The position numbers were made by a program, and so were the translations under genes. A DNA stretch of 64,000 nucleotides from an uncultured Actinomycetes bacterium (lineage in GTDB: Bacteria; Actinomycetota; JAICYB01). Below the pieces are notes generated by a model that worked only from the letters and a program-made list of their open reading frames with translations, was not told the DNA's origin and did no database searches. Below, in pieces: positions 27,865 through 61,796 of this stretch (within the stretch, counting starts at the first letter, position 1; the number at the start of each line of letters is the position of its first letter). The stretch lies in assembly GCA_963766295.1 (NCBI GenBank), contig CAVXYW010000002.1, forward strand, positions 204,297 to 268,296, given 5' to 3'.

Positions 27865-29490
27865 TCAACGAACTGGCGGTAAGAGACGCCCCAGTTGTCG
27901 TCTGATCTCTGAAAGAAGCCGCGACGGACCGCTTGCATCGTTGCTGCTCTCGGCCGATCCAAGGTATGCGATGAAATGCACGCGGCCCCCGTGATAGCGG
28001 CGGTAGTGCAACAGACCACGGCTTGCGGCGCGACGCAATAGATCCGCTATCGGCAGTGCGTGATGCGGATGGTGATCGTCCGGCTCGGAGGAGACGAGGT
28101 TGACGAAAATGAGTCGAGCGCGGCTCTCGAGAGCCTCGAGAGTCGAGAGCGGATCATCGACATGCTCCAGGACATCGAAGCAATAGGCAGCGTCGAATCC
28201 GCCCGGGATGCTGTCGGCGTCCAAGTCGTAAATGGATGCGTCGATGCCGCGTCGAGCGAGGCGCCATCGCAGGTATTTGGTGGACGGGTTGTCGAAGTCT
28301 GCAAGGGACACGTCGTAGCCGTCTTCGATCAGCCGCAATCCGTCGCTACCGATGCCGCACCCCCAATCCAGCAGCCGTCCTCCTTGCGGTACGAGCCTGC
28401 GTAGCACCTCCCGATACGGAACCTTCGTCGCCGACATAGCGAATACCGTGAGGTCGTATAGATAGGCCTCGCTGGATCTGTAGAAAGTGGCTTCGTCCCC
28501 AACGACCTCCAGCTCGTGCATCACTTCGTGCATGTGCCCACGCAACCTCTCTACATCGAAGGAGTCGCCGAGGTACTCCTTTAGCTCTTCGAGGTCACGA
28601 TCTCCTTCCCACGCGTCGAAGAAGTAAGGGGCCAAGTGCTGGTAGTACCAGGTGTCGGCTCTCCGCTCGGCGACGCGGCGAACAGTCGTTAGGTTTCGGG
28701 GGACCCGCTCTACGGCGATTGGCCAAATACGCGAGACCGGCCGCCGGCCTGCGGATGCGCGGGCACGCCGCGCGAACCACGGCTCGAACCAATCGTGCTT
28801 CGCCGCCATCATTCGCTCGCCGGGAGCGATTCCCTGGAACCGACGCAAAACGTCCGGCCAACTCAACATATGCAGGTGATGTGCGACGGCCTTGCGCTCG
28901 TAGAGCAAGACCATCCCCGCTTGATCTAGACGCCAACCCATGTCCAAGTCTTCGTAGTAGTAGACGAAGTCCTCGTCGAACCCGAGCACATCGTTGAAGA
29001 GCTCGCGCTTGAGCGAGATGTTGGACGAGTAGAACCTTCCGAACCCGGCTACATCGCCTTCGATGTTGTGATAGTCGAATTGCGTTCCGGACCAATCCAT
29101 CCAGCGGTTGATGCGGCCGGCCGCTGCGGGATGAGGGTCGATGTGACCGAGCACGGCGGTGCGGGAGTCTGGGTGCCGTTCATGTACCAACAGGTGGCGC
29201 GCCACTAGGTCCGGCGTTGGGACCATGTCATCGCCCAAGAAAAGGATCAGGGGATTTTGACTTGCGGCGACGCCGGCGTTACGCGCAGCACCCGGCCCTC
29301 CGTGGTCTTTGACCAGTGTTTGAACGCCGAGGTCTGCGGGAGGCTCTTGGTCCGTGCCGTCGACCACGACGATGATCTCGAAGCCGGAGACCGATTGAGC
29401 ACGAAGCGCATCAAGCGTTCGGCGAAGGATGTCCCAACGGCCGCGCGTTGGTATGACAACGCTCAGGTCGGTCGGGTTGAAGGCGGACAT
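27865..29490 (-). CDS. bifunctional GT2 glycosyltransferase / class I SAM-dependent methyltransferase fusion
   Basis: N-terminal GT2 ('DLSVVIPTRGRWD', 'EIIVVVDGTD', 'LFLGDDM'). C-terminal MTase ('GRLLDWGCGIGSDG', 'DAAYCFDVLEHVDDP'). Start at ATG 29490; the ORF-track start 29616 adds a Pro/Arg/Ser-rich leader that crosses the divergent gene. Confidence 0.85.
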   Translation of the reverse strand: MSAFNPTDLSVVIPTRGRWDILRRTLDALRAQSVSGFEIIVVVDGTDQEPPADLGVQTLVKDHGGPGAARNAGVAASQNPLILFLGDDMVPTPDLVARHLLVHERHPDSRTAVLGHIDPHPAAAGRINRWMDWSGTQFDYHNIEGDVAGFGRFYSSNISLKRELFNDVLGFDEDFVYYYEDLDMGWRLDQAGMVLLYERKAVAHHLHMLSWPDVLRRFQGIAPGERMMAAKHDWFEPWFARRARASAGRRPVSRIWPIAVERVPRNLTTVRRVAERRADTWYYQHLAPYFFDAWEGDRDLEELKEYLGDSFDVERLRGHMHEVMHELEVVGDEATFYRSSEAYLYDLTVFAMSATKVPYREVLRRLVPQGGRLLDWGCGIGSDGLRLIEDGYDVSLADFDNPSTKYLRWRLARRGIDASIYDLDADSIPGGFDAAYCFDVLEHVDDPLSTLEALESRARLIFVNLVSSEPDDHHPHHALPIADLLRRAASRGLLHYRRYHGGRVHFIAYLGSAESSNDASGPSRLLSEIRRQLGRLLPPVR

Positions 29491-29582
29491 ACTTGAAGTT
29501 TTCGGCCGATGAGTCTCGGCGGCGACAACTATACTCTTGCGGATCACCGACCGGATCGGTGGGCACAAAGCGCTGCGAGGCG

Positions 29583-30392
29583 ATGTTGAGCGATACGGTC
29601 GAGACTCTTCGGGCACAAGTCGCCGAACTCGAGTGGTACCACACGATCGAGTTGGCTCCTGGACTCACGACGCCGGGCTGGTTCGACACACGCAGGGTCG
29701 TTAATCGGTTGCCATTTCCCGAATCTTTGCATGGCAAGCGATGCTTGGACGTCGGAACCTTCGACGGATTTTGGGCGTTCGAGATGGAACGTCGCGGCGC
29801 CTCGCAAACCGTCGCGATCGATGTTCTCGAGCCTTCAGAGTGGGACTGGCCCGCCGGCGGTTCGCCTGAGGATGTCGCTGCCATAGGGACAAGGAAGAGT
29901 CGTGGGCGCGGATTCGAGGTTGCGCGCGAAGCATTGGGGTCGTTGGTCGAGCGCGTCGAGAAGAGTGTCTACCAGCTCGACCCCGAGATCGATGGGGTTT
30001 TTGACTACGTCTACGTTGGCAGTCTTCTGCTGCACCTTCGTGATCCGGTGGGAGCACTTATGCGTGTCCGATCGGTGTGCCGGGGATCGATGCTGTCCGT
30101 CGACGCGATCGATCTGGGGCTCACGTTTGCACACCCACGGCGACCAATCGCAACGTTGGAGGCACTCGGCCGCCCTTGGTGGTGGAAACCTAACCTGGCG
30201 GCATACGTCCGGATGATCGAGGCCGCGGGGTTCTCGGCCCAACGCCACGGACGGTTCTTCATGCCCGCCGGTGATGGGCAGGCTCGCACCAGACCAACGG
30301 CGCGTGCGCTGGCGTCGAGATTCGGCCGCGAGGAGATCTTTCGCGTACGAGTGGGCGACCCGCACGCGTTTGTCCTTGCTCGACACGCCTGA
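29583..30392 (+). CDS. class I SAM-dependent methyltransferase (WYHTIE / CmoB-like type)
   Basis: 'ELEWYHTIELAPGLTTPGWFD' and 'RCLDVGTFDGFWAFEMERRGA', plus 'VYVGSLLLHLRDP'. It is a paralog of 41015-41803. Confidence 0.8.
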   Translation: MLSDTVETLRAQVAELEWYHTIELAPGLTTPGWFDTRRVVNRLPFPESLHGKRCLDVGTFDGFWAFEMERRGASQTVAIDVLEPSEWDWPAGGSPEDVAAIGTRKSRGRGFEVAREALGSLVERVEKSVYQLDPEIDGVFDYVYVGSLLLHLRDPVGALMRVRSVCRGSMLSVDAIDLGLTFAHPRRPIATLEALGRPWWWKPNLAAYVRMIEAAGFSAQRHGRFFMPAGDGQARTRPTARALASRFGREEIFRVRVGDPHAFVLARHA

Positions 30393-43930: not shown

Positions 43931-45265
43931 TTAGATCTTCGCTTCAGGCGTCAACGGCGAGGAGGTTTCGGCTTCTCGATCGAAGTCGATATCCCAATCC
44001 AACATGGGTCGGACGACACCGGGCCAGTCAAACGTAATAGGACCTCGTACGCCTTCTCCCTTCGTTGAATCGGAGATGTTGAATGCGACCACGTCGGGCT
44101 CGATCCAGTGTGTGGCCCGCGGTCTAATCGAGGCGAGGATCACTTCCACGGTTATCTGACCTTCGGCAAGGAAATGTCCTGGGATGGTGCACACAGTTCG
44201 CACGATTCCCGGCCGTCTTTCCGATTCGTACCAGTCTTGGCGAACCATGTCCGTCGAAGCAAAAAGGACGACGCCTTCCTCATTGAAGAACTTCAGAGTG
44301 ACAGTGGGGCCGAGTTGTCGTGCCGACGAGTACGACCAATACGTCACTTCGATCTTGATGGGTTGGGCGATGTCGATTTGATCGGACACGCCACCATCGC
44401 CGTCGATGACACGCACCGACCGTAGCTTCACGACGTCATCGCCGGGAGCTTCCTCGGGCGACCATTCTCGTGCTGCGGAAGTTCCGAGTCCGGACTCCAG
44501 ATAGGTTCGTATTACGTCCGACGCATCTCCGTCTGCTATTACGCTGCCACGATTCAGCAGGATCACTCGAGGGCACAGTCGCACGATCGAAGCCATGCTG
44601 TGCGAGACGAAAACGACGGTTCCGCCCATCGAGCTCGCTTGCTCCATTCGCCCCATGCATTTGCGCTGGAACTCGAGATCGCCGACAGCAAGCACTTCGT
44701 CGACGAGAAGTATCTCGGACTCGAGATGAGCTGCAACGGCGAACGCTAGGCGTACCTGCATGCCCGAGGAATATCGCTTGATGGGCGTATCAATGAATTG
44801 CTCGACGTTGGCGAAATCGACGATTTCGTCAAACTTTCGGCGAATCTCGGCCCGACGCATACCGAGGATGGCTCCGTTGAGGTACACGTTTTCGCGACCG
44901 GTAAGTTCTGGATGAAACCCAGTTCCTACTTCGAGTAAAGAGTTGAGCGATCCGCGGACCCGAACCTCGCCCGCGGTCGGCTCTGTGATCCGCGAAAGAA
45001 CCTTGAGCAGGGTCGTTTTCCCAGCCCCATTTCGTCCGATGAGACCTACGACCTCGCCTTGCTCCACATCGAAGGAAACATCGTTGAGGGCCCAGACATG
45101 TTCCTTCGTCTTGCGAACGCGCGAATTCTCCCGTCTTCGCAGGAACTGAGTCGCAGCTCTCGCCCCCTGTGCGACGGTGTCGCGGAGTGTGCCGTAGGGC
45201 TCTCGTTCGCCCAGGCGATAACGTTTGCCCAGCTGGTGAACGCTGACGACCGAGTTCGCGCTCAT
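43931..45265 (-). CDS. wzt: polysaccharide/O-antigen-type ABC exporter ATP-binding protein with extended C-terminal (Wzt_C-like) domain
   Basis: Walker A GRNGAGKTT, signature 'YSSGMQVRL', Walker B 'ILLVDEVLAVGD' and H-loop 'FVSHS'. About 190 extra C-terminal residues are rich in beta-type alternation. Confidence 0.9.
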   Translation of the reverse strand: MSANSVVSVHQLGKRYRLGEREPYGTLRDTVAQGARAATQFLRRRENSRVRKTKEHVWALNDVSFDVEQGEVVGLIGRNGAGKTTLLKVLSRITEPTAGEVRVRGSLNSLLEVGTGFHPELTGRENVYLNGAILGMRRAEIRRKFDEIVDFANVEQFIDTPIKRYSSGMQVRLAFAVAAHLESEILLVDEVLAVGDLEFQRKCMGRMEQASSMGGTVVFVSHSMASIVRLCPRVILLNRGSVIADGDASDVIRTYLESGLGTSAAREWSPEEAPGDDVVKLRSVRVIDGDGGVSDQIDIAQPIKIEVTYWSYSSARQLGPTVTLKFFNEEGVVLFASTDMVRQDWYESERRPGIVRTVCTIPGHFLAEGQITVEVILASIRPRATHWIEPDVVAFNISDSTKGEGVRGPITFDWPGVVRPMLDWDIDFDREAETSSPLTPEAKI

Positions 45266-46158
45266 CAGACCACGTCCGCGATCAGGCCCTCGGTGCGTCT
45301 AAAGAACCACGCGCCTGAGAGAAGGACAACTATCGCCGTCAGACTTGAAACCAGGAAGGTCAACCCCGGACGCTGTCCGCTTCCTGTCAATGCCCAGCGG
45401 TAACCGTCGATCACGCTGGCCATCGGGTTCAGCAAGTAGAACGAACGCCAGGCGTCCGGAATCTGACTCGTGGGATAGATGACGGGTGAAACGAACAGGC
45501 CGAACTGAAGCAGGAAAGGTACTGCGTATCGGACGTCGCGATACATGGCGTTAAGGGCGGAGGTCCAGAGGCTGACCCCTACTGCGGTTACCACAGACAG
45601 GCCAATGAGTAATGGCAAGACGAGTAAGGCGGCGGTTGGCTCTATGCCGAAATAGAACATCAAAGCGATAAGCATGGTGAAAGCGATCGCATGGTCCATT
45701 AGGGAGGAGAGCGCGAAGGATATCGGCAGCATGACTCGCGGGAAGTAGACCTTCGTGATTAGCGCTTGACTCTGAGCGATGGACTCCGACCCGGCGCTGA
45801 CTGTTGACGTGAAGTATGTCCACGGGAGCAGCGCGGCGTAGTAGAAGACTGGACGTGGCACACCGTCGGTTGGGATCTGTGCTACGCGCCCGAACAAGAG
45901 CGTGAAAGCAATCATCATCAGGAACGGTTGGAGAACCGCCCACCCACCGCCGATGACCGTTTGTTTGTATCGAACCTTGACGTTGCGCCACGCAAAGAAG
46001 GCGAGTAGCTCTCGGTAGGCCCATAGATCTCGAAGTCCCAGACCCATCCAACCCCGCCTAGGACGCAGGATTCGCTCGCGGCTCTCCGGACGCAGAGCGC
46101 GCGTGGCCACCCGGTTTTCCTCTTGCTTCGCACGCTTGACTGAACGAGAGGTCCGCAT
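45265..46158 (-). CDS. wzm: ABC-2 type polysaccharide exporter permease
   Basis: 'YRELLAFFAWRNVKVRYKQTVIGGGWAVLQP' is the hallmark N-terminal block of Wzm/TagG/KpsM permeases, followed by about 6 TM. Start at ATG 46158. The stop overlaps the wzt start (ATGA). Confidence 0.85.
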   Translation of the reverse strand: MRTSRSVKRAKQEENRVATRALRPESRERILRPRRGWMGLGLRDLWAYRELLAFFAWRNVKVRYKQTVIGGGWAVLQPFLMMIAFTLLFGRVAQIPTDGVPRPVFYYAALLPWTYFTSTVSAGSESIAQSQALITKVYFPRVMLPISFALSSLMDHAIAFTMLIALMFYFGIEPTAALLVLPLLIGLSVVTAVGVSLWTSALNAMYRDVRYAVPFLLQFGLFVSPVIYPTSQIPDAWRSFYLLNPMASVIDGYRWALTGSGQRPGLTFLVSSLTAIVVLLSGAWFFRRTEGLIADVV

Positions 46159-46310
46159 GGTCGACCAGCTTAGCGGTCCCAAGGTTGTTGAGAAGGCACT
46201 GTTTCCGGCTTCCACGGGCCACGACGGTGACCGTTTTTCCTCAGCTGATCTCTCTAGCTCAAACGGTAGAGTCTGGCTTGTCCTCTCAACTCGATGAGGC
46301 TGTCGTCGAC

Positions 46311-47459
46311 ATGACAACCGTGAACGACTCCGAAAGAGTTCGCGTCCTCTTGGCCATGGGAACCAGGCCAGAGGTCATAAAGCTCGCACCCGTGTATAAG
46401 TCGATCGCCGCACACAAACACTTGGATCCGATGGTCGTGCTTAGTGGGCAACACAAGGAACACGTTGACGAGGCTCTTGATGCCTTCGATCTGCCGATCG
46501 AGATGGAGTTCAGCGTGATGGCGCCCAGGCAAGGTCTTCTCGATCTGGCACCACGACTCATCGAAGCTGCCGCCGAAGCTCTGGAAAAGACTCAACCCGC
46601 CTATGTCGTGGTGCAAGGCGACACGCTCTCGACCTTCGTGTTCTCGTGGGCTGCATTTCTGCGCGGAATCCCCGTTGCTCATGTCGAAGCCGGTCTGCGT
46701 TCGGGGTCGATCCAGCGCCCCTTCCCGGAGGAAGCGAACCGTCGGCTGACGAGCGCGATAACAGACCTCGATCTCGCGCCAACGCCGCAGGCTCGGGCAA
46801 ACTTGGTTCGCGAAGGGAAGGATCCCGACAGGATTGTGGTTACCGGCCAAACGGGAATCGACGCCGTTCGCGATGTGAGCGCCAGGAGCAGTCTCCCGGA
46901 CTCATTTCCCGCCGGACCCTACGTGACGGTGACCTTTCACAGGCGCGAGAACTGGCCCATTCTCAAGGAACTCGTTGCTGCAGTCGGGCGCTTGGCAACA
47001 CGCCATCCGGATCTACGCATCGTTTTCCCGGTTCATTGGAATCCGGCCGTGCGGGAAGCCGTGTTTCCAGTAGTTGAAGGGATCCCAAACGTTTTGGCGA
47101 TCGATGCGCTTCCTTACACGCACATGTCAGCACTCTTGCGTCGCAGCAAGCTGATCATCACCGACTCGGGGGGTTTGCAAGAAGAAGGTGTCGCGCTGGG
47201 CGTTCCCGTTGTCGTCGCGCGCGAAGTCACCGAAAGACCGGAAGGTGTCGATTCCGGAGGTCTTTTCGTTGCCGGCACGGATCCTGTGGCCATCTTTGAT
47301 GTCGCGCATGGCTTGCTCTCGGGTCAAAGATTCAGAGCTACACGCGGTGCTAGGAACGTTTACGGCGATGGAAAAGCTGGTGCACGGGTGGCACGTGCGA
47401 TCGCCTGGCGACTTGGATTGAATGGTAGGCCGCGTGATTGGTCGCCTCGCACCGGATGA
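46311..47459 (+). CDS. wecB: UDP-N-acetylglucosamine 2-epimerase (non-hydrolysing)
   Basis: 'VRVLLAMGTRPEVIKLAPV', 'VVVQGDTLSTF', 'VAHVEAGLRS', 'PFPEEANRRL' and 'ITDSGGLQEEG'. Start at ATG 46311. Confidence 0.9.
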   Translation: MTTVNDSERVRVLLAMGTRPEVIKLAPVYKSIAAHKHLDPMVVLSGQHKEHVDEALDAFDLPIEMEFSVMAPRQGLLDLAPRLIEAAAEALEKTQPAYVVVQGDTLSTFVFSWAAFLRGIPVAHVEAGLRSGSIQRPFPEEANRRLTSAITDLDLAPTPQARANLVREGKDPDRIVVTGQTGIDAVRDVSARSSLPDSFPAGPYVTVTFHRRENWPILKELVAAVGRLATRHPDLRIVFPVHWNPAVREAVFPVVEGIPNVLAIDALPYTHMSALLRRSKLIITDSGGLQEEGVALGVPVVVAREVTERPEGVDSGGLFVAGTDPVAIFDVAHGLLSGQRFRATRGARNVYGDGKAGARVARAIAWRLGLNGRPRDWSPRTG

Positions 47460-47497
47460 CTGCACGAATGTCCCAAGGCGATCGCGATGGTGGAGAT

Positions 47498-49045
47498 ATG
47501 ATCGAACGCGTGGTCACGCCGACCCGGCTTCCTGGATGGGGTGGACCACAAGAAAAGCGCTCGAAATCCTCGCGGTCTACACGCACTCGCAGGGTTCCAT
47601 TGTGGTTGTCGGCAACGCTTTCTGGAGTGTTGATCGGACTGTTCGCCGCCACCCATCAATTCCTTCTGCCGCTCTGGGCCTTGTTGGTCCTTTCGGTTGT
47701 CGCCTTCTTCGTTCTATACGCCAGCTGGAGGCGACCGGCGTTCGGGCTGATCCTTCTGGTGGTAGGTGTTCCCTTTCAGGAGCTCATCTTCGGTCGCCTG
47801 TTTTCATTGGGGATCCCCCTCGCTTTTCTGGCGCCGGTTCGGTTCTGGAAAGAAGTAATTGTCCTGACGCTGGTTTGTCGAGTCTTAGCCGAGCGGCGCG
47901 AGAGGCTGGACGCGATCGATCGCGCTTCCCTGTGGTTTCTCGGAGTGATCGGTCTCTACTTGGTCATCCCGGTGGGTCCGGCGATAAACCTAAGATTCCT
48001 AGCCGCACGCCAAATTGCGAGCTTCTTGCTCGTTTTCTTTGCGGCTCGGTACCTAGTGCTGGACGGACCTCAGCGTCGGCGTATCGAGAACGCCATCCTG
48101 CTTGTTGGATCGGTGATCGCGGCCTTGGCCTACTGGAATTACTTCGATCCGTCTGGCTGGACCGACTGGGTCATATCGAATCGGATCATGGAATACCGAA
48201 ATGCCGTGGCAGCTGGTCGTGCCGGCGGAACGATAGTCACTCACGGTCAGTTCGGCGGCGAGACCGTGGTCCGAACTGGTTCCCTGCTTCTCAGTCCGCT
48301 GACGCTGCCGTATTACCTGGCCGTGCCGACCACGATCGCCCTTGTGCGATCTATCCGCAGAGCAGCGAGCTGGCCAACGTTGGTCGTCGGGGTGGCCTGT
48401 GCCGGCGCGATCATCTTGACCTACACCCGTAGCGCGATAGTGCTTATGCCCATCGCAGGGCTATTAGCCCTCGCGACCTCTCGGAACAAGGTGCGTCTGG
48501 TTATCGCGATAGTTGCCGGTGTTTTGATCCTTGCGCCGGTGGTTGGCGGATCCGTTCTCAGCGATAGGCTCCGGACTTCCTTTGACCCCGATGATCCGAG
48601 CCGCTCGCTTCATGAGACTCGGGTCAGCGCGGCAGTCGAACGATTGTGGGAGCGACCACTCGGTTCAGGGTTGGCGTCATCTGCTGGGCAAGATTTCCGC
48701 TTCAACGCCGAGGGAAGGATCGTTACGGAGAACTGGTACCTACAAGTGGGCCTCGATCTCGGGATCTTACCCATGCTCCTCGTTGCCTGCATATTCATCG
48801 CCGTTCTCCGGGGGCTCTGGCAACGAGCTCAGGCGGGATCCTCCGTCGCGCTAGCGGGCCTATGCGCATTGGCTTGGGTTGCTTTGGGTGCACTCTTCTT
48901 GCAGCACTTGTCCGACCTGACCGTTTCATGGAGTGTCTGGCTCTTGTCCGGGCTGGCTTACCGAACCGACGAGTCGGACGAGCAAGTGCTTGAACCAGTC
49001 GACAGGACCGCATCGGTGAATCCGGTTCCTGTGGGCAAGCCATAA
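47498..49045 (+). CDS. O-antigen ligase / Wzy_C family polytopic membrane protein
   Basis: About 12 hydrophobic helices. 'ILTYTRSAIVLMPIAGLLAL', the loop 'RVSAAVERLWERPLGSGLASSAG' and 'ENWYLQVGLDLGILPMLL' follow the Wzy_C/WaaL pattern. Start at ATG 47498, preceded by GGAGA. Confidence 0.7.
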   Translation: MIERVVTPTRLPGWGGPQEKRSKSSRSTRTRRVPLWLSATLSGVLIGLFAATHQFLLPLWALLVLSVVAFFVLYASWRRPAFGLILLVVGVPFQELIFGRLFSLGIPLAFLAPVRFWKEVIVLTLVCRVLAERRERLDAIDRASLWFLGVIGLYLVIPVGPAINLRFLAARQIASFLLVFFAARYLVLDGPQRRRIENAILLVGSVIAALAYWNYFDPSGWTDWVISNRIMEYRNAVAAGRAGGTIVTHGQFGGETVVRTGSLLLSPLTLPYYLAVPTTIALVRSIRRAASWPTLVVGVACAGAIILTYTRSAIVLMPIAGLLALATSRNKVRLVIAIVAGVLILAPVVGGSVLSDRLRTSFDPDDPSRSLHETRVSAAVERLWERPLGSGLASSAGQDFRFNAEGRIVTENWYLQVGLDLGILPMLLVACIFIAVLRGLWQRAQAGSSVALAGLCALAWVALGALFLQHLSDLTVSWSVWLLSGLAYRTDESDEQVLEPVDRTASVNPVPVGKP

Positions 49046-49081
49046 GCGGACCTGAGCGACGCGTCTCGATGCTCAAGGCAC

Positions 49082-50182
49082 ATGGGGAAAGGCCAAACGT
49101 TGGATAAGGGTGCGAGAGCACTTCGAGTGCTTCACGTTCTTCGGACGGATCACGGTACGCACGTAGGCGGGGACCTTGTTCAACTGGCGTCGACAGTTGA
49201 AGCTCTGAATCGCCTTGGTGTCGACGCCATCGCATCAACCGTTGAGGATGGTCCCGAAGCAGTCGATGTGGTTCATTTCTACAATGTGATGCGGCCGGCG
49301 GCTCTCGCTTCTGACTTGCGCAGCGCTAAGCGAAGGTGGCCATCCGTACCGTTCGTCTTGTCGCCGATCTATTGGCCTCCCCAAGCACTGGCGATGCTGC
49401 GCTCGCGACGCGGCGCTACGGTTCGTGCAGCCAAGCAAGTGGCCAAAGACTTGCTCTGGTGGCCCGCCATCAGATCCCGGCTGCGAGAGTTCGATCTCGT
49501 GATGCCGAATGCGCCGAGCGAATCCCTGCGATTGGCGAGTCACTTCCGAGTCGCGACCGATGGGCGATGGAGGGTCGTTCCCAATGGGGTCTGGCTCGAT
49601 AAGTGGCAGTGGCTTCGTTCAACACATCGTGCGGAGAGACTGAGCGAATTGGAATTAGACCCCGGATTGCCGACGATCATCGGCTGCGTTGCTCGTCTCG
49701 AGCCCAGGAAGAACCAGTTGGTGCTCTTCGATGCACTGAAGCAAATGGACGATGTCGGCCTGATACTCATCGGTCCGGACGGAGAGAAGGGCTACGCCGA
49801 CGCCGTCAGAGATGCTGCCCGACTAATGAATGGCCGAGTCGCACTAACCGGCCCCCTGGACGCTGAAGGGGTGCGTTCGAGGTTGGGACTCTGCGACATC
49901 CATGTGCTCCCTGCGTTTTACGAAACGCCCGGGCTCGCGAGTCTCGAGGCTGCGGCCGTGGGGTGCGAGATCGTCACGACGCGTATCGGAACGGCCACGG
50001 ATTACTTCGGCGAGTCCGCCCGTTACATCGACCCTTGGTCGGTCGGCTCGATCGTGTCCGCTCTGCGAGCCGCCCAGCGTGAGCCTCTTCAGCCTGGAAC
50101 CAGCGAACGCGCTCGCAGCTACGACTGGACAAATGCGGGAAGGGCGCTGGTTGAAGCCTATGCGAGCTTGAACCTCAGCTAA
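49082..50182 (+). CDS. GT4 (GT-B fold) glycosyltransferase
   Basis: 'RLEPRKNQLVLFDAL' and 'LPAFYETPGLASLEAAAVGCEIVTT'. Confidence 0.8.
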   Translation: MGKGQTLDKGARALRVLHVLRTDHGTHVGGDLVQLASTVEALNRLGVDAIASTVEDGPEAVDVVHFYNVMRPAALASDLRSAKRRWPSVPFVLSPIYWPPQALAMLRSRRGATVRAAKQVAKDLLWWPAIRSRLREFDLVMPNAPSESLRLASHFRVATDGRWRVVPNGVWLDKWQWLRSTHRAERLSELELDPGLPTIIGCVARLEPRKNQLVLFDALKQMDDVGLILIGPDGEKGYADAVRDAARLMNGRVALTGPLDAEGVRSRLGLCDIHVLPAFYETPGLASLEAAAVGCEIVTTRIGTATDYFGESARYIDPWSVGSIVSALRAAQREPLQPGTSERARSYDWTNAGRALVEAYASLNLS

Positions 50183-51226: not shown

Positions 51227-51278
51227 CGGCCAATGATAGTGGGGGACTAATCAGATGAAGCAGGGGATGCGGCGGTGT

Positions 51279-53434: not shown

Positions 53435-53504
53435 CGCGATTCGCCTTCTGTCGAGAGGGCGAGGGCGTATCGATTCGTGGTGGTCATATCTGCGAGCCGT
53501 TCCT

Positions 53505-53540
53505 CTGTGGCCTGGCGGAGACTGCTGCAGTCTGCCACAG
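53505..53540. other. nested inverted repeat in the 141-bp spacer between two minus-strand glycan genes
   Basis: CTGTGGC(53505-53511)...GCCACAG(53534-53540) encloses AGACT-GCTGC-AGTCT (53519-53533). There is no flanking T/U tract. Confidence 0.3.
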
Positions 53541-53575
53541 GCCGAAACCATTTCTTTCGACAGGGTGTTCGTTCT

Positions 53576-56690: not shown

Positions 56691-58085
56691 CTAGTAAGCG
56701 CCGTGCTTGCTGACAACCGCCGGCAGCGTCCGCAGGATGATGTAGATGTCCAACAGCAGGCTCCAGTTGCGGACGTAAGTGAGGTCAAGTCGCGCGCGAT
56801 CCTCCGCGGCCAGTGCGTGACGTCCGCTGACCTGCCATAGACCCGTTATCCCCGGAGGCATGAGGAAACGTCCGCCCAGGATGCTTTCGGAGTAAGAACC
56901 CTCTCGAAGTGTTACCGGGCGAGGGCCGACCAAGCTCATGTCTCCACGCAAGACGTTGATGAATTGTGGGAGCTCGTCCAGCGACAAACGACGGAGCCAC
57001 TTGCCGATGCTCGTTACCCGTGGGTCATTGGGCGCCTTGATCGTGAATCCCCAGCCATCGTCTTGTGAGACGTGCAACTCGGCGTCCTCGTCCGATCCGT
57101 CCACCATGGTCCTGAACTTCCAAACGGTGAACACCTTGCCCCCCTGTCCCAACCTGGGCTGCCGGAAGATCGCTGGGCCGGGTGTATTGAGGCGAACGAG
57201 CATGCCGATGGTGACCATCGCCGGCATGGCAACGAGAAGTGCGAGCAGCGAGGCGACGATGTCCATGGTCCGTTTGAGGAGTCGCTGGTATGTCCGAAGG
57301 GAAGCCGGCTCCAGCGAAAGACCGGGTTCCTCGCCGACGGGGACGATCGCGAGGTTGTGCGCGAGCGTGTAGTCCAGTCCGGGAAGGATCAGAACCTGTG
57401 CCGGGAGCTGATCGGCCACGGCGACTACGTGATTGACCTCGTCTCGCTCCATATCAGTGGCGACGATGACAACGGTTCCAGCGCCTGTTCTGCGAACGAT
57501 TTGGTCGAGCTCCTGCAGCGTCACGTCCGGCAGCCCATCCCACGCAAAACCGCAAGTAGCGACCGGCTGCATTCCGCGGACGGGGTTCATCATGAGGTCC
57601 TCGAGAAGAGCCTTCGCCTCGCGTCGCCCGACTACCACGGTCGGTGTTTGCCATTTCCCTCGACTCCGCTTTCTTGCTACCAATCCCGAGAGGGCGCGGC
57701 GTTCCAAGGCAACCATTGGGATCACCAAGAGCGTGCTCAACGCGATCCATAGACGACTGGGCTCCTGCCTTAGGGCGAAGGAGATGCTCACCAAGGCAAT
57801 GGGAGCTGCGAGTCCGGCGGCTACGAGACGCCGGGCCTGTTCCACGGCATTCATATTCCGGATCGGGCTGTAGAGGCTGAAGGCGGCCATGGCTCCGATC
57901 CAAAGTGGGATCGCAAGCGCTATGTGTCCGGACAGAAGACCGGACCCCAGCCCGTCGCTCGCATACTCCAGGTTTTCGAGCGGGCCCAGGCGCAGGAGGC
58001 CGGCGGTGACCAACGCCAGCGCGACAGCCGTCATGTCGAAGACGAGGGCTGTGCTCCGCCACCAGCTGTGCCACTTCGGCTTCAT
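56691..58085 (-). CDS. polyprenyl-phosphate glycosyl-1-phosphate transferase (WbaP/CpsE-type initiating enzyme)
   Basis: N-terminal TM bundle and a central domain. The C-terminal bacterial sugar-transferase domain reads 'KRTMDIVASLLALLV...PGPAIFRQPRLGQGGKVFTVWKFRTM...DPRVTSIGKWLRRLSLDELPQFINVLRGDMSLVGPRP'. Confidence 0.9.
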   Translation of the reverse strand: MKPKWHSWWRSTALVFDMTAVALALVTAGLLRLGPLENLEYASDGLGSGLLSGHIALAIPLWIGAMAAFSLYSPIRNMNAVEQARRLVAAGLAAPIALVSISFALRQEPSRLWIALSTLLVIPMVALERRALSGLVARKRSRGKWQTPTVVVGRREAKALLEDLMMNPVRGMQPVATCGFAWDGLPDVTLQELDQIVRRTGAGTVVIVATDMERDEVNHVVAVADQLPAQVLILPGLDYTLAHNLAIVPVGEEPGLSLEPASLRTYQRLLKRTMDIVASLLALLVAMPAMVTIGMLVRLNTPGPAIFRQPRLGQGGKVFTVWKFRTMVDGSDEDAELHVSQDDGWGFTIKAPNDPRVTSIGKWLRRLSLDELPQFINVLRGDMSLVGPRPVTLREGSYSESILGGRFLMPPGITGLWQVSGRHALAAEDRARLDLTYVRNWSLLLDIYIILRTLPAVVSKHGAY

Positions 58086-58324: not shown

Positions 58325-59740
58325 GTGGATCGGGAGCTCCGCGACTACCTCAACGTCCTCAAGAAACGCAAGTGGTATGTCGTGCTGACCCTGATGGCCG
58401 CTGTGGGCATCGCTGTTGTGCTCACGGCGCAGACCACGCCCGTTTATGAGGCCGGAGCCACGCTCTTCGTTGGTCAGAGGCAGATAGCGCGCGAGGACGT
58501 CGAGCAAGACGCCCAGGTAGCGGTGGCCGTTTCCGATCTGTCCTTCAGGCTTCTCTCGAGCTATTCGGAGGTCTTATCGTCCCGAAGCATCGCCGAAAAA
58601 GCGATCGGTGAGTTCCAACTGGATATCTCACCTCGCGCGCTCAGGAACGGCATCCGGGCACAACCGATTCCCAACACCCAGATCATCGAGCTCGTCTATT
58701 CCAATTCGGACCAGGTCCTGGCCCAACGGGTAGCAAACGGGATCGCTGATGTTTTCGTAAGGGAAATAAGCGTCTTGGATCCCTCGGTAGGCGGTGGGGA
58801 TCCGGTGGTAAATGTCTCGGTTCTGGACCGGGCCACAGTGCCGACAGACCCGGTGGCGCCGCAGCCCGTTCGCAACGTGCTCCTGGCTGTGACGCTCGGT
58901 CTGGCAGCAGGGATCGGCCTTATGTTGTTGAGGGATCGCTTGGACACAACGGTCAAGCTCCCCTCTGAGATAGAGAAAATACCCCTGCCGGTGCTCGGCA
59001 CCGTTCCAACGCTCGAAATCCCACGCGGCGCGCTTTACCTTGAGCATGACCCTCAAGGCATGGGTGGCGAAGCGTTTAGGAAGCTTCGGACCTCCTTGGG
59101 CTTTCTCGGCGTAGAACTTCCGCTTCGAACGATTCTTGTTTCGTCACCGAGCCCGACGGAGGGGAAGACAACCGTTGCGTTGAATCTCGCCGCGGCTTTC
59201 GCGTTCGGCGGGCTCCGCACGTTGCTGATCGAAGGGGACCTGCGGCGCCCCTCCTTGCACACCATGTTTGGTATGCGAGGGACCAAGGGATTGACTACGG
59301 CGATCGTCGGTCAAGTCAATGCGGCAGACGCCGTCATGTCGACTGACATACCGAACCTCTCGGTGTTGCTGGCCGGCGCCATTCCACCTAATCCCGTTGA
59401 GTTACTGGGATCAGAACAGATGTCCGAACTGCTCGATCGACTGAAAAAGCAGTTCGATGTTCTCATCATCGATTCCCCTCCGCTGATTCCCGTAGCCGAC
59501 CCGGCCGTCTTGGCAGGTCGTTGTGATGGCGTGCTGCTGGTTGCCCGCGCCGGCAAGACCGACCGTGGGCGGTTGAGCGACAGCAGTCAGATTGTCGATC
59601 GGGTCGGCGGTCGGCTCTTAGGCGTGGTCCTGAACTTCGTTCGCCGAGGTGATGATGCAATGGACTACGCCTACTACTACCAATACGCCCCACAGGACCC
59701 GGACGCCGCTCCAACGCGCAATCCTGCCGCGCGGAGTTAA
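58325..59740 (+). CDS. polysaccharide co-polymerase (Wzz domain) fused to a BY-type tyrosine kinase
   Basis: 'LRDYLNVLKKRKWYVVLTLMAAVGIAV' (Wzz N-terminus). Walker A 'SPSPTEGKTTVALNLA', A' 'LLIEGDLRRP', B 'VLIIDSPPL'. C-terminal Tyr cluster 'DYAYYYQYAP'. GTG start. Confidence 0.9.
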   Translation: MDRELRDYLNVLKKRKWYVVLTLMAAVGIAVVLTAQTTPVYEAGATLFVGQRQIAREDVEQDAQVAVAVSDLSFRLLSSYSEVLSSRSIAEKAIGEFQLDISPRALRNGIRAQPIPNTQIIELVYSNSDQVLAQRVANGIADVFVREISVLDPSVGGGDPVVNVSVLDRATVPTDPVAPQPVRNVLLAVTLGLAAGIGLMLLRDRLDTTVKLPSEIEKIPLPVLGTVPTLEIPRGALYLEHDPQGMGGEAFRKLRTSLGFLGVELPLRTILVSSPSPTEGKTTVALNLAAAFAFGGLRTLLIEGDLRRPSLHTMFGMRGTKGLTTAIVGQVNAADAVMSTDIPNLSVLLAGAIPPNPVELLGSEQMSELLDRLKKQFDVLIIDSPPLIPVADPAVLAGRCDGVLLVARAGKTDRGRLSDSSQIVDRVGGRLLGVVLNFVRRGDDAMDYAYYYQYAPQDPDAAPTRNPAARS

Positions 59741-59762
59741 CTAGGCCGAAACTCGAGCACAA

Positions 59763-61796
59763 TTGTCCGATCGTTTCACCGACGAAGTCCCAAAGATCGG
59801 CCGCTCAGGACGTATACGAGTCAGGCGGCGATTTCGTCAGGCTTGGAAGTCCAAGAAAAGACGATCTGAGCTTCGTCGTAAAGCTCAGCGCATAGTTTTC
59901 TGGCTGGCCGCGGCTTACCTCGCAACGTGCGTCATCTCGGCGATCTTCACGTTGCCGTCCGTCTGGCGGGCCGCCACTGAGGGCCGGAACCTACTGATCG
60001 ACGGTCGAGACGCCGTTCTGGCCCGCAACGACCGCGCGGCATTAGCTACGTTTCGCCGTGCAAACGACGTGCTGAACGGTACGCACTCTCGGCTTGCTTC
60101 GGTGTTCGCCTGGCCGCTCAAAGTCATGCCGATCATCTCAACGCACGTGCGCGTGTCCGAAGCGCTGGCCGATGCCGGCTCGCGTGTGGCCGAGATGGGT
60201 TTAGCGATTTCCACGGTGATGAATGAAATTCCGCAAAGCCAACTGCAGTTGGTGGACGGCCGGGCAGATCTTGACGTCGTGCGCCAAGCGTCGAAAGTCG
60301 TTGGGACGCGTTTGTCGCGATTTCGCGAGATCCAGGAAGTCGTCAGCAGGATCCCCGACGGTTGGGTCTTCAGCCCACTGAACAGTGCGCGACGTGAGGG
60401 TCGCGAACTCCTACCTATGGCCGTCGACGTCGTCGAGAAGCTTGACGTCGCACTGAACGCGCTTCCGGGATTGCTAGGTGAAGGTTCTGGCAAGAGGTAC
60501 CTCGTGGCCTTTTCCGGACTGGCTGAACTTAGAGGTACCGGTGGTCTCTACGGGTACGTTACCGATCTCGAAGCCAGCGACGGCGACCTGGATCTAGGTG
60601 ATGTCTCCGGAGATCCGGCAACGCTCTTCGCACCGCCCGGCGTTATCGGTCTGCCCTATCCCGACTGGTTCTCGGAGGATTTCAAAGAGAACAGCGGCGT
60701 CTTCATGAATATCAACCTGACGACCGACTTCCCCACGGTGGCCAAGTTCATCCTGGAGACGGCTTCTTTCTCGCTTGGTGATCTAGACGGAGTCATAGCC
60801 GTCGATCCTTTGGCCATCAGCTCACTGCTGCAAGTAACTGGACCTATAACCGTGCCGGCCTGGTCTGGAGAGATCAGTGCCGACAACGTGTCTCGGATCG
60901 CTCACCACGACGTCTATGTGGTGCTGCAGGATGCGCAGGATCGAGAGGATTTCTACGAGCAACTTGTAAGAACGACTTTCGATCGTCTGACGTCGGGAGA
61001 TATAAGGATTTCGCCCCGGTCGGCAGGTGCGCTCGATGCGGCAACTCGAGGTGGGCACCTCCGAATGTTTTCGACACACACGAGCGACCAAAAGGCTCTG
61101 GAAACCCTCGGGCTCTCGGGTGCTGTTGACCAGAATCGCGATGGCACGGATGTGCTGTCGCTTGTTTCTGAAAACGCGAACGGCAACAAGATCGACTGGT
61201 ATCTTCGCCGCGACATCGTGTATCGCGTGCGCTTGAACCCTGATAAGGGAGAAGCTGAGACGCGATTGGTCGGCTCGCTTCGCAACGATGCTCCATCGGC
61301 GGGTCTTCCCGACTATGTGATCGGGTCTCAAGCGGGGTTAGCGCCGGGGTCCAATCAGTCGCTCTTGCTCTTGCTCCGCGCTCCTGAAGATGCTCTCGAA
61401 GAGTTTCAGGTCGGCGAAGAGGAATCGCCCGTCGTACTTCGAGAACGGGAAGCTCGGTTGCGTTCCTACCGCTCGTCCGTGACTATCCCGCCCAAATCCG
61501 GCGTAACCGTAAGGGTTCGTTCCAGGGTCAAGGGCGCTGTGGTCGTAGCGGGGGAGCGGCGCCTTTATCGACTCCACGTCATTCCCCAGGCGACCGCTCA
61601 TCCTGACCATGGCGAGATCATCGTTGAAGTTCCCGCAGGATGGACGGCGCGCGGAGATACGCGGTATTCGGGAGAGCTGAATCGTCCCCTGACCCTTGAA
61701 ATCGAGCTCACCAAGACGCGTCGAGCGACCTTGGTTGACGCCTTGATCCTCAACCCCGTTCGGGCCGTGGGCCGGTTTTTCGCCGGAATTTTTTAG
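59763..61796 (+). CDS. DUF4012-like membrane-anchored extracytoplasmic protein
   Basis: Basic N-terminal tail plus one TM (IVFWLAAAYLATCVISAIFTL). The core 'YLVAFSGLAELRGTGGLYGYVTDLEASDGDLDLGDV' fits my recollection of DUF4012. TTG start. Confidence 0.7.
   Translation: MSDRFTDEVPKIGRSGRIRVRRRFRQAWKSKKRRSELRRKAQRIVFWLAAAYLATCVISAIFTLPSVWRAATEGRNLLIDGRDAVLARNDRAALATFRRANDVLNGTHSRLASVFAWPLKVMPIISTHVRVSEALADAGSRVAEMGLAISTVMNEIPQSQLQLVDGRADLDVVRQASKVVGTRLSRFREIQEVVSRIPDGWVFSPLNSARREGRELLPMAVDVVEKLDVALNALPGLLGEGSGKRYLVAFSGLAELRGTGGLYGYVTDLEASDGDLDLGDVSGDPATLFAPPGVIGLPYPDWFSEDFKENSGVFMNINLTTDFPTVAKFILETASFSLGDLDGVIAVDPLAISSLLQVTGPITVPAWSGEISADNVSRIAHHDVYVVLQDAQDREDFYEQLVRTTFDRLTSGDIRISPRSAGALDAATRGGHLRMFSTHTSDQKALETLGLSGAVDQNRDGTDVLSLVSENANGNKIDWYLRRDIVYRVRLNPDKGEAETRLVGSLRNDAPSAGLPDYVIGSQAGLAPGSNQSLLLLLRAPEDALEEFQVGEEESPVVLREREARLRSYRSSVTIPPKSGVTVRVRSRVKGAVVVAGERRLYRLHVIPQATAHPDHGEIIVEVPAGWTARGDTRYSGELNRPLTLEIELTKTRRATLVDALILNPVRAVGRFFAGIF

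What the first reader, a model, noticed from the sequence alone, without database searches (positions are those of the whole stretch)
47498..49045. Wzy_C/O-antigen-ligase family protein in a Wzm/Wzt locus: possible O-oligosaccharyltransferase, with 'EN' where ligases usually have 'HN'
- A monoderm-type actinobacterium has no lipid A-core to ligate to.
- In the Geobacillus S-layer glycosylation cluster, a Wzy_C protein (WsaB) transfers the ABC-exported glycan onto protein. PglL/PilO enzymes do the same in proteobacteria.
- The same gene set is present here: a WbaP-like PGT, Wzm/Wzt, a GT-MTase fusion and a Wzy_C protein.
- So protein O-glycosylation, or transfer to another envelope acceptor, is a real possibility.
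- The motif that usually reads (S/A)HN-x-(Y/F)-L in this family reads 'TENWYLQV' here. The conserved His seems to be replaced by Glu. This is by-eye alignment only.
Basis: partly seen in the sequence, partly recalled or inferred. Interest (0 to 1): 0.6.

Follow-up and report, generated by a model that had tools for sequence, protein, structure and literature searches.

The report
Glu-for-His O-antigen-ligase-like membrane enzyme
This gene encodes a membrane enzyme of the O-antigen ligase/polymerase superfamily whose usual catalytic histidine is replaced by glutamate, a change already described for sugar-chain polymerases of the same superfamily, so what it attaches the exported sugar chain to remains open.

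Summary
The ORF (47498-49045, +) is a Wzy_C protein. Its AlphaFold model has WaaL (7TPG) as the best solved match. 'TENWYLQVGLDLG' is the canonical H(X10)G motif with Glu411 at the site of the catalytic His (E. coli H338).

New here:
- The second phosphate-binding Arg (E. coli R288) is an invariant His372.
- Both features define a family of at least 137 clusters (Glu 106, Asp 11, His 5 of 122 sequences). It occurs in Actinomycetota, Chloroflexota and Patescibacteria MAGs.
- In Actinomycetes and Chloroflexota the gene travels with Wzm/Wzt, a methyltransferase-GT2 fusion and a BY-kinase-like gene, with no Wzx.

The novelty is limited. Meitil et al. 2024 (PMC10920833) report that inverting Wzy polymerases and SEDS carry Asp/Glu at this position.

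The best reading (0.5) is an inverting, Glu-based enzyme that moves the ABC-exported Und-PP-linked glycan onto an unknown acceptor. A polymerase role (0.3) and protein O-glycosylation (0.2, a sub-case of the ligase reading) are not excluded. No candidate acceptor protein was found near the locus.

This scan has already noted the same slg-like locus logic in several other genomes.

The parts
47498..49045 (+). Wzy_C-type GT-C_B membrane glycosyltransferase, 515 aa from ATG 47498. Alternative starts are ATG 47456, which overlaps the upstream stop as ATGA, and TTG 47438.
   Evidence: ORF. Pfam PF04932 at 40.4 bits. AF2 model pLDDT 88.6, pTM 0.86. Best solved match WaaL 7tpg_B, E 1.2e-4. Start region read.
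48725..48763 (+). Motif T410-E411-N-W-Y-L-Q-V-G-L-D-L-G422. This is the canonical H(X10)G block with Glu at the His position.
   Evidence: Sequence. Alignments. Column counts E 106, D 11, H 5 and G422 in 122 of 122.
48728..48730 (+). Codon GAG for Glu411, the proposed general base. It is equivalent to E. coli WaaL H338 and C. metallidurans WaaL H313.
   Evidence: Role of the His taken from PMC10920833.
48611..48613 (+). Codon CAT for His372, invariant in the family. It sits at the position of the second phosphate-binding Arg (E. coli R288, C. metallidurans R265).
   Evidence: Two Patescibacteria-type members carry Arg here.
48428..48430 (+). Codon CGT for Arg311 in 'TYTRSA'. This is the retained first phosphate-binding Arg (E. 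coli R215, C. metallidurans R191).
43931..46317 (-). Wzt (ABC ATPase with a weak Wzt_C-like C-terminal domain) and Wzm (ABC-2 permease). They are transcribed divergently from the operon that holds the Wzy_C gene.
   Evidence: Pfam. Adjacency kept in orthologous loci L004 and L005. Wzt/Wzm also present in distant loci L006, L007, L008 and L011.
46185..47459 (+). UDP-GlcNAc 2-epimerase gene, first gene of the three-gene plus-strand unit epimerase / Wzy_C / GT4.
   Evidence: Pfam Epimerase_2, E 8.9e-94.
49082..50182 (+). GT4 glycosyltransferase immediately downstream on the same strand.
   Evidence: Pfam. Ortholog follows the Wzy_C gene in L004.
56691..58085 (-). WbaP-like phosphoglycosyl transferase (Bac_transf + CoA_binding_3), the likely initiating enzyme that makes the Und-PP-sugar.
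   Evidence: Pfam. 80-81% identical in L004 and L005.
58325..61796 (+). Fused Wzz/GNVR/BY-kinase (PCP-2b type) followed by a DUF4012 protein.
   Evidence: Pfam. Conserved in L004 and L005. A BY-kinase-like ATPase sits one GT2 gene upstream of the Wzy_C gene in L006-L009 and L011.
27865..29616 (-). GT2-methyltransferase fusion, a candidate chain-capping or terminating enzyme.
   Evidence: Pfam. An MTase-GT2 fusion also stands in the Chloroflexota operon L007 with homologs in L006, L008 and L011.

Best explanation
The gene encodes an inverting GT-C_B glycosyltransferase that uses a lipid-diphosphate donor. It belongs to the WaaL/Wzy/SEDS clan, which CAZy calls GT-C1.

**Active site (inferred)**
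- The active site faces outward.
- Arg311, His372 and probably Arg171 and Arg259 hold the diphosphate of the undecaprenyl-PP-linked glycan.
- Glu411, in place of the WaaL His, deprotonates the acceptor hydroxyl.

**Proposed pathway (inferred)**
1. The WbaP-like transferase starts the glycan on Und-P.
2. The locus GT2, GT4 and GT17 enzymes extend it in the cytoplasm.
3. The methyltransferases methylate and cap it.
4. Wzm/Wzt export it.
5. This enzyme carries out the last extracytoplasmic step, moving the chain en bloc from Und-PP to an acceptor that is not lipid A-core. The acceptor could be a protein, a glycolipid or another glycan.

**What is shown:** the fold, the residue equivalences, their conservation, and the gene context.

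**What is inferred:** the residue roles, the donor, and en-bloc transfer.

**What is unknown:** the acceptor.
For: **Fold and family**
- Pfam Wzy_C above its cut-off.
- AF2 model with pLDDT 88.6, best solved match WaaL 7TPG, then FtsW.

**Residue equivalences**
- R311, H372 and E411 correspond to E. coli R215, R288 and H338. The same result comes from Pfam profile position 130.
- R171, R311, H372 and G422 are invariant. Position 411 reads E 106, D 11, H 5 of 122.
- E, D and H exchanged at least 10 times on the family tree, as expected for interchangeable general bases.
- Residue roles in WaaL, and Asp/Glu equivalents in related families, are from PMC10920833.

**ABC-transporter context**
- Wzm/Wzt lie next to the gene here and in the orthologous loci L004 and L005.
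- L006, L007, L008 and L011 (Actinomycetes and Chloroflexota) share the operon MT-GT2 / Wzt / Wzm / GT2 / a 638-aa protein of unknown function / BY-kinase-like / GT2 / Wzy_C.

**No Wzx partner**
- There is no Wzx-like polytopic ORF in the 64-kb window or within 10 kb in L004-L008 and L011.
- PF01943 has no match in the 88.6%-complete genome. The weak PF13440 hits are two MurJ genes.

**No lipid A, no nearby LCP**
- No LpxC was found.
- The three LCP genes of the genome lie far from the locus.

**Precedent**
- In the Geobacillus slg cluster a Wzy_C protein ends a pathway built from a WbaP-type initiator and Wzm/Wzt (PMC2943079).
Against: - The carboxylate base is the reported signature of inverting Wzy polymerases, not of ligases or O-OTases.
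- A PCP/BY-kinase gene, a classical partner of Wzy polymerases, accompanies the gene across phyla.
- Within one GTDB genus the protein diverges much faster (59% and 39% identity) than the PGT (81% and 80%), the BY-kinase (80% and 79%) or Wzt (70% and 66%). That is the behaviour of glycan-specific enzymes such as Wzy.
- No acceptor has been identified.
- The genome is a MAG, 88.6% complete, so the absence of Wzx is not proven.
- No model coordinates were available, so the geometry of the proposed site was not measured.
Confidence: 0.5

Rival explanations
1. It is a Wzy-type inverting polysaccharide polymerase (BP-Pol). It joins Und-PP-linked blocks outside the membrane under control of the PCP/BY-kinase, with Wzm/Wzt or a MurJ paralog doing the flipping instead of Wzx.
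For: - Asp/Glu aligned with the O-Lig His is the reported hallmark of inverting BP-Pol families GT125, 126, 128 and 129.
- A BY-kinase/PCP gene is linked to the gene here and in Actinomycetes and Chloroflexota loci.
- A WbaP-like PGT is present.
- The protein diverges fast between genus members (59% and 39%) in step with GT17 (69% and 38%).
- Two MurJ paralogs exist in the genome.
Against: - No Wzx is present in the window, the genome or six related loci.
- Wzm/Wzt, a Wzt_C-like domain and MTase-GT capping fusions indicate that the chain is finished and terminated in the cytoplasm, which leaves nothing to polymerise.
- I know of no described pathway that combines Wzm/Wzt export with Wzy polymerisation (own knowledge).
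Confidence: 0.3
2. The first reader's reading, which is a special case of the ligase model: the enzyme is a protein O-oligosaccharyltransferase, like WsaB, WsfB, PglL or PilO, that puts the ABC-exported glycan on Ser, Thr or Tyr of a surface protein.
For: - The gene set matches the Geobacillus/Paenibacillus slg clusters: WsaP-like PGT, Wzm/Wzt, MTase-GT capping enzyme and a Wzy_C protein.
- There is no lipid A pathway.
- Leads only: a 2499-aa secreted Ser/Thr-rich ORF exists elsewhere in the genome (C1:391157-398656), and a PEGA-domain protein lies beside a Saccharibacteria family member (L010).
Against: - The O-OTases discussed in the papers read here keep the catalytic His (PglS H324, aligned to the WaaL His).
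- The enzyme has no TPR domain and no C-terminal extra domain.
- No SLH protein is found in the genome.
- No surface-protein gene is conserved in the locus or in the related operons.
Confidence: 0.2
3. It is a catalytically dead or merely structural relic of a ligase that lost its His.
For: Both the canonical His and the second canonical Arg are replaced.
Against: - The replacements are conserved family-wide: H372 in 122 of 122 sequences, and position 411 only ever E, D or H.
- R171, R311, G389 and G422 are invariant.
- The family has at least 137 clusters at 50% identity across three phyla.
- A carboxylate at this site is functional in SEDS and is proposed to be so in BP-Pols.
Confidence: 0.03

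Closest known systems
WaaL O-antigen ligase (CAZy GT121; C. metallidurans structure 7TPG; E. coli K-12 WaaL)
   Same: - GT-C_B fold; WaaL is the best solved match.
- Pfam Wzy_C.
- The first phosphate-binding Arg is retained (R311 = E. coli R215).
- The same H(X10)G block geometry, with G422 invariant.
- It sits beside a Wzm/Wzt exporter, as WaaL does functionally in ABC-dependent O-antigen pathways.
   Different: - The catalytic His is Glu.
- The second Arg is His.
- The genome shows no lipid A pathway.
- About 14 predicted helices and two outer loops, against 12 helices reported for WaaL.
- No sequence-level hit to any PDB chain.
Inverting bacterial polysaccharide polymerases (Wzy) of CAZy clan GT-C1: GT125, GT126, GT128, GT129 (Meitil et al. 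2024, PMC10920833)
   Same: - A conserved Asp/Glu aligned with the WaaL His.
- One or two conserved Arg residues.
- A long outer loop near the C-terminus.
- Linkage to a PCP/BY-kinase.
- Fast divergence between close relatives.
   Different: - No Wzx partner.
- The exporter in the operon is Wzm/Wzt, accompanied by capping enzymes.
- Membership in any of these CAZy families could not be tested, because no reference sequences or HMMs were at hand.
WsaB / WsfB, the predicted S-layer O-oligosaccharyltransferases of the Geobacillus stearothermophilus and Paenibacillus alvei slg clusters
   Same: A Wzy_C protein that ends a pathway made of a WbaP-type initiator, Wzm/Wzt and an MTase-GT capping enzyme in a monoderm.
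   Different: - No S-layer or SLH gene was found.
- No TPR domain and no WsaA-like partner was seen.
- A BY-kinase and DUF4012 are present here.
- The active-site residues of WsaB and WsfB could not be compared.
SEDS peptidoglycan polymerases (RodA/FtsW, GT119)
   Same: - FtsW is the second-best structural match (8p1u).
- SEDS use a carboxylate (Asp) at the position of the WaaL His.
   Different: - Different family and locus.
- SEDS keep the second Arg that is His here.

Membership tests
Pfam Wzy_C (PF04932) / GT-C_B fold | Profile match above the gathering score | tested here: met
   40.4 bits against a 31.7-bit cut-off, residues 299-429 on profile 4-148. Some family members fall below it: L007 scores 22.8 bits and P0005 has no Pfam domain on record.
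Pfam Wzy_C (PF04932) / GT-C_B fold | WaaL/SEDS-like polytopic fold | tested here: met
   AF2 pLDDT 88.6. Foldseek top hits 7tpg_B (prob 1.00, TM 0.53 normalised by the target length) and 8p1u_A FtsW.
O-antigen ligase WaaL (GT121) | Conserved catalytic His in the H(X10)G block (E. coli H338, C. metallidurans H313) | tested here: not met
   Glu411 occupies the column. The family reads E 106, D 11, H 5.
O-antigen ligase WaaL (GT121) | Two Arg residues that bind the Und-PP phosphates (C. metallidurans R191 and R265) | tested here: not met
   The first is present (R311). The second is an invariant His372.
O-antigen ligase WaaL (GT121) | Lipid A-core acceptor present in the organism | tested here: not met
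   No LpxC match in the 88.6%-complete genome.
Protein O-oligosaccharyltransferases (PglL/PilO/PglS; WsaB/WsfB) | Catalytic His equivalent to the WaaL His (PglS H324) | tested here: not met
   Glu at that column. His requirement taken from PMC12800693.
Protein O-oligosaccharyltransferases (PglL/PilO/PglS; WsaB/WsfB) | Acceptor protein gene (pilin or S-layer protein) or a TPR module linked to the enzyme | tested here: not met
   No TPR domain or extra domain. No SLH in the genome. No conserved surface-protein gene in the locus or in related operons.
Protein O-oligosaccharyltransferases (PglL/PilO/PglS; WsaB/WsfB) | Demonstrated transfer of glycan to protein | not testable with these tools
   Needs glycoproteomics or an in vitro assay.
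Inverting Wzy polymerases of clan GT-C1 (GT125/126/128/129) | Conserved Asp/Glu aligned with the O-Lig His, plus one or two conserved Arg | tested here: met
   E411 (or Asp) and R311, with R171 and R259 also conserved. Criterion taken from PMC10920833.
Inverting Wzy polymerases of clan GT-C1 (GT125/126/128/129) | Works with a Wzx flippase encoded in the locus | tested here: not met
   No PF01943 match in the genome. PF13440 hits are MurJ. No Wzx-like ORF in the window or in six related loci.
Inverting Wzy polymerases of clan GT-C1 (GT125/126/128/129) | Sequence membership in one of the CAZy family HMMs | not tested
slg-type ABC-dependent glycan pathway (Geobacillus/Paenibacillus) | WbaP-type PGT + Wzm/Wzt + MTase-GT capping enzyme + Wzy_C transferase in one locus | tested here: met
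   compared with PMC2943079.
slg-type ABC-dependent glycan pathway (Geobacillus/Paenibacillus) | S-layer structural protein as the target | tested here: not met
   No SLH domain in the genome and nothing S-layer-like in the locus.

The most novel reading that the evidence does not exclude
The protein stands for an undescribed GT-C_B family that spans Actinomycetota, Chloroflexota and Patescibacteria. Its active site is rewired from Arg / Arg / His to Arg / His / Glu. It is the dedicated outer-face partner of a Wzm/Wzt exporter together with a PCP/BY-kinase. That would be a third assembly logic in monoderm bacteria, in which ABC-exported, capped, lipid-linked chains are joined or attached outside the membrane under PCP control. 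It would be neither the classical Wzx/Wzy route nor the classical ABC + WaaL or ABC + LCP route.
Probability: 0.25. Interest if true: 0.7.

Novelty: new variant of a known kind. Interest (0 to 1): 0.4.

Why it matters
How monoderm bacteria attach ABC-exported glycans through Wzy_C proteins is largely unknown. WsaB and WsfB are only predicted transferases, and CAZy notes GT121-like proteins of unknown role in Gram-positives.

This family offers a sharply defined set of residues to mutate: R311, H372 and E411. It also offers a conserved gene module (Wzm/Wzt, MTase-GT2, PCP/BY-kinase, Wzy_C) to reconstitute.

There is a practical lesson for annotation. His versus Glu at the H(X10)G site cannot by itself separate ligases, O-OTases and polymerases, and 'O-antigen ligase family protein' labels in Actinomycetota hide at least two active-site types. 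Wzy_C matched in 124 of 151 sampled genomes of the phylum.

Tried and rejected
- **Single-sequence AF2.** The model was useless (pLDDT 50). It was redone with the 122-sequence alignment.
- **Sequence and profile searches of the PDB.** Neither found WaaL. Only the fold search did.
- **Direct hhalign of the family against enterobacterial WaaL in global mode.** It was weak (Prob 70) and ambiguous. It put E411 on E. coli E322 and shifted the Arg region by two residues. I set it aside in favour of the two-step route through canonical actinobacterial Wzy_C.
- **BLASTP against the genome's own paralog.** It found nothing.
- **The hypothesis that H372 is the true catalytic His and E411 equals PglL E404 / PglS E379** (a lead). 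I rejected it. H372 aligns with the canonical Arg at the same 15-residue spacing to the Pro of the 'PxG.G' block, and two Patescibacteria-type members carry Arg there.
- **The search for related loci with the full alignment.** It failed for lack of a conserved stretch.
- **The profile search with A1 in the search for homologous proteins.** It returned only 7 proteins, so no large annotated-context census was possible.
- **The listing of cluster members.** It gave almost no names.
- **tblastn against plasmids.** It gave one weak hit.
- **The WaaL structure paper.** It could not be opened. Its residue roles are cited through PMC10920833.
- **Patescibacteria-type loci.** They showed no shared transporter context.
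- **The Ser/Thr-rich ORF scan.** It was mostly noise from antisense frames in a GC-rich genome.
Full report
**1. What is at the coordinates**

The + strand frame is open from 47438 to 49045. I number residues from this start.

ATG 47456 overlaps the stop of the upstream UDP-GlcNAc 2-epimerase gene as ATGA. It is the start used in the public protein call (529 aa). The N-terminus is not conserved, so the start remains uncertain.

The protein hits Pfam Wzy_C at E 3.2e-10 and 40.4 bits, above the 31.7-bit gathering score, over residues 299-429. No NCBIfam model matches.

A simple hydropathy scan finds about 10 strongly hydrophobic segments. The AlphaFold model built with a 122-sequence alignment (pLDDT 88.6, pTM 0.86) shows about 14 helices long enough to span the membrane. 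It also shows two outward loops, at residues 218-265 and 352-422. The orientation is my inference from the Arg/Lys-rich N-terminus.

Foldseek against the PDB puts the WaaL O-antigen ligase first (7tpg_B, E 1.2e-4, probability 1.00, TM 0.53 normalised by the length of WaaL). The SEDS polymerase FtsW comes second (8p1u). This is the GT-C_B fold.

**2. The locus**

| Coordinates | Gene |
|---|---|
| 27865-29616(-) | GT2-methyltransferase fusion |
| between 30.4 and 41.8 kb | several stand-alone methyltransferases |
| 33186-35120(+) | PMT_2-type GT-C |
| 39289-40958(-) | nucleotidyltransferase and dehydratase/epimerase genes |
| 43931-45265(-) | Wzt, with a weak Wzt_C match (27.8 bits, below the cut-off) |
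| 45265-46317(-) | Wzm |
| 46185-50182(+) | plus-strand trio: epimerase, Wzy_C, GT4 |
| 50210-56639(-) | GT17, GT2, an SDR, two GT4 and a GT2 |
| 56691-58085(-) | WbaP-like phosphoglycosyl transferase |
| 58325-59740(+) | fused Wzz/GNVR/BY-kinase |
| 59763-61796(+) | DUF4012 protein |

The polytopic membrane ORFs in the whole 64 kb are a purine/cytosine permease, the PMT_2 protein, Wzm, the Wzy_C protein and the PGT. None looks like a Wzx flippase.

In the whole assembly (2.9 Mb, 2 contigs, 88.6% complete):
- PF01943 has no match.
- The weak PF13440 matches are two MurJ genes.
- Three LCP genes lie far from the locus.
- Neither LpxC nor SLH domains are found.

**3. The His-to-Glu observation holds**

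'TENWYLQVGLDLG' (residues 410-422; Glu411 = GAG at 48728-48730) fits the canonical block.

- In 30 of 30 strong Wzy_C proteins from other Actinomycetota and in the genome's own second Wzy_C gene, the block reads 'aHNxyLexlaEtGlvG'.
- Glu411 and His455 of the paralog both fall on Pfam profile position 130.
- hhalign of the family alignment A1 against the canonical set gives Prob 99.7, E 2.8e-26 over 380 columns, with E411 on the invariant His.
- The canonical set aligns to enterobacterial WaaL at Prob 98.1, E 1e-13. Its His falls on E. coli H338, its two Arg on R288 and R215.

The transitive mapping is therefore:

| This protein | E. coli WaaL | C. metallidurans WaaL |
|---|---|---|
| R311 | R215 | R191 |
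| H372 | R288 | R265 |
| E411 | H338 | H313 |

The C. metallidurans numbering is taken from PMC10920833.

**4. What is new: a second change and a family**

A phmmer pass over 1.84 billion cluster representatives found 664 relatives at E <= 1e-3 and 137 at E <= 1e-30. In an alignment of 122 full-length members:
- R171, R311, H372, G389 and G422 are invariant.
- Position 411 is Glu in 106, Asp in 11 and His in 5.

So the family also replaces the second phosphate-binding Arg by an invariant His.

On a FastTree built without the motif columns, the E/D/H states need at least 10 changes. The five His-bearers are five separate events. Glu is therefore the family state, and Asp and His are tolerated, as expected of a general base.

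Family members recovered from species-representative genomes come from:
- uncultured Actinomycetes/Actinomycetota,
- Chloroflexota,
- Saccharibacteria, Peregrinibacteria/Peribacteria and one unclassified bacterium.

All score E 1e-39 or better against the family HMM, apart from L011, whose ORF call was broken (1.7e-27). All keep R259, R311 and E411. R171 is Lys in L010 and L016, and these same two carry Arg instead of His at 372. That supports the placement of H372 on the Arg site.

Among 60 relatives sampled in the phylum, the family was found only in the two genomes of the same genus. Wzy_C proteins in general occur in 124 of 151 sampled genomes.

**5. Context across relatives**

In the two genus-level loci (L004 and L005), Wzm/Wzt stay next to the gene. 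The PGT / BY-kinase / DUF4012 block is conserved too.

| Gene | Identity in L004 | Identity in L005 |
|---|---|---|
| PGT | 81% | 80% |
| BY-kinase | 80% | 79% |
| Wzt | 70% | 66% |
| Wzy_C | 59% | 39% |
| GT17 | 69% | 38% |

The Wzy_C protein and GT17 diverge far faster than the rest.

Four more distant loci share one operon: L006, L008 and L011 from Actinomycetes MAGs, and L007 from Chloroflexota. Its order is GT4, MTase-GT2 fusion, Wzt, Wzm, GT2, a 638-aa protein without Pfam match, a BY-kinase-like ATPase, GT2, the Glu-type Wzy_C, then several GT4. The short Chloroflexota contig L009 keeps the last part.

None of these loci has a Wzx-like polytopic ORF within 10 kb.

The Patescibacteria-type loci have other neighbours and no obvious exporter: a sortase, a PEGA-domain protein, and tRNA synthetases.

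**6. What the literature says about the Glu**

Meitil et al. 2024 (PMC10920833) group O-antigen ligases (GT121), SEDS (GT119) and the inverting Wzy families GT125-GT129 in clan GT-C1.
- SEDS have an essential Asp at that position.

A carboxylate at this site is therefore already described. If anything, it points away from ligases and O-OTases. PglS uses H324, assigned by structural alignment with the WaaL His (PMC12800693).

The slg clusters of Geobacillus and Paenibacillus do combine a WbaP-type initiator, Wzm/Wzt, the MTase-GT enzyme WsaE and a Wzy_C protein that is predicted, not shown, to be the O-OTase (PMC2943079).

**7. Weighing the readings**

For a terminal en-bloc transferase:
- the exporter is Wzm/Wzt;
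- capping enzymes are present;
- there is no Wzx;
- the linkage to Wzm/Wzt holds across two phyla.

For a polymerase:
- the Glu;
- the PCP/BY-kinase linkage across phyla;
- the fast, GT-correlated divergence.

For a protein acceptor specifically, nothing beyond analogy. There is no SLH, no TPR, and no conserved surface protein in the locus.

My probabilities:

| Reading | Probability |
|---|---|
| En-bloc ligase, acceptor open | 0.5 |
| Polymerase | 0.3 |
| Protein O-OTase (a sub-case of the ligase reading) | 0.2 |
| Dead relic | 0.03 |

The mechanism I commit to has three parts. It is an inverting transfer from Und-PP-glycan. Glu411 is the base. Arg311, His372 and probably Arg171 and Arg259 hold the diphosphate on the outer face. 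The residue roles are inferred from homology, not shown.

**8. Verdict**

The Glu itself is not new for the superfamily. What appears undescribed is the combination of three things:
- an Arg / His / Glu site;
- a family restricted, in the genomes found here, to three phyla that typically lack an outer membrane;
- a fixed association with Wzm/Wzt plus a PCP/BY-kinase.

That combination makes this a new variant of a known kind.

Earlier notes of this scan describe the same slg-like locus logic on this window (e1-2884441) and on several other genomes.

Noticed in passing
outside the window: G000:C2:297562-299220 (L001:511-2169, +): A second Wzy_C gene about 46 kb downstream keeps the canonical Arg and His ('NRTAIW...', 'YSAHSGYYEILLGVG'). 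Its open frame begins with about 60 residues that look like a ribbon-helix-helix/antitoxin-type peptide ('[32 protein letters not shown]'). That may be a separate small gene in the same frame.
   Followed up: partly
The genome search, e.g. G096:C5:82093-98047: Some small Actinomycetota genomes (2.0-2.6 Mb) carry 7-13 Wzy_C matches of about 690 aa each. G096 has 13, with at least six in a tandem run within 16 kb. This is an unusual expansion of ligase/polymerase-like genes.
   Followed up: no
L010:1501-2892 (-) and L016:3996-5354 (+): Next to Glu-type family members in Patescibacteria-type MAGs lie a PEGA-domain protein (Saccharibacteria, L010) and a sortase (unclassified bacterium, L016). These are possible leads to a protein acceptor. 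These two members also carry Arg, not His, at the 372 position.
   Followed up: partly
outside the window: G000:C1:391157-398656 (+): A 2499-aa ORF with a signal-peptide-like N-terminus and 23% Ser+Thr. It is a candidate giant surface protein on the other contig and is not linked to the locus.
   Followed up: no
L018 (G001:C3:185972-187438): The ortholog in a genome of the same genus carries one in-frame TAG according to the genome search. This could be a pseudogene or an assembly error in a 75%-complete MAG.
   Followed up: no
window 47456-47459: The ATGA overlap between the stop of the UDP-GlcNAc 2-epimerase gene and an alternative start of the Wzy_C gene suggests translational coupling.
   Followed up: partly
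L007:6221-8137 and homologs in L006, L008, L009, L011: A conserved protein of about 640 aa without any Pfam match always precedes the BY-kinase-like ATPase in the Actinomycetes/Chloroflexota operon. It may be the membrane (Wzz-like) half of a split PCP.
   Followed up: partly
outside the window: G000:C1:364915-366138 and G000:C2:1053833-1055197: The genome has two MurJ-family flippase paralogs (E 8.5e-86 and 3.1e-59). One could flip a lipid-linked glycan other than lipid II.
   Followed up: no
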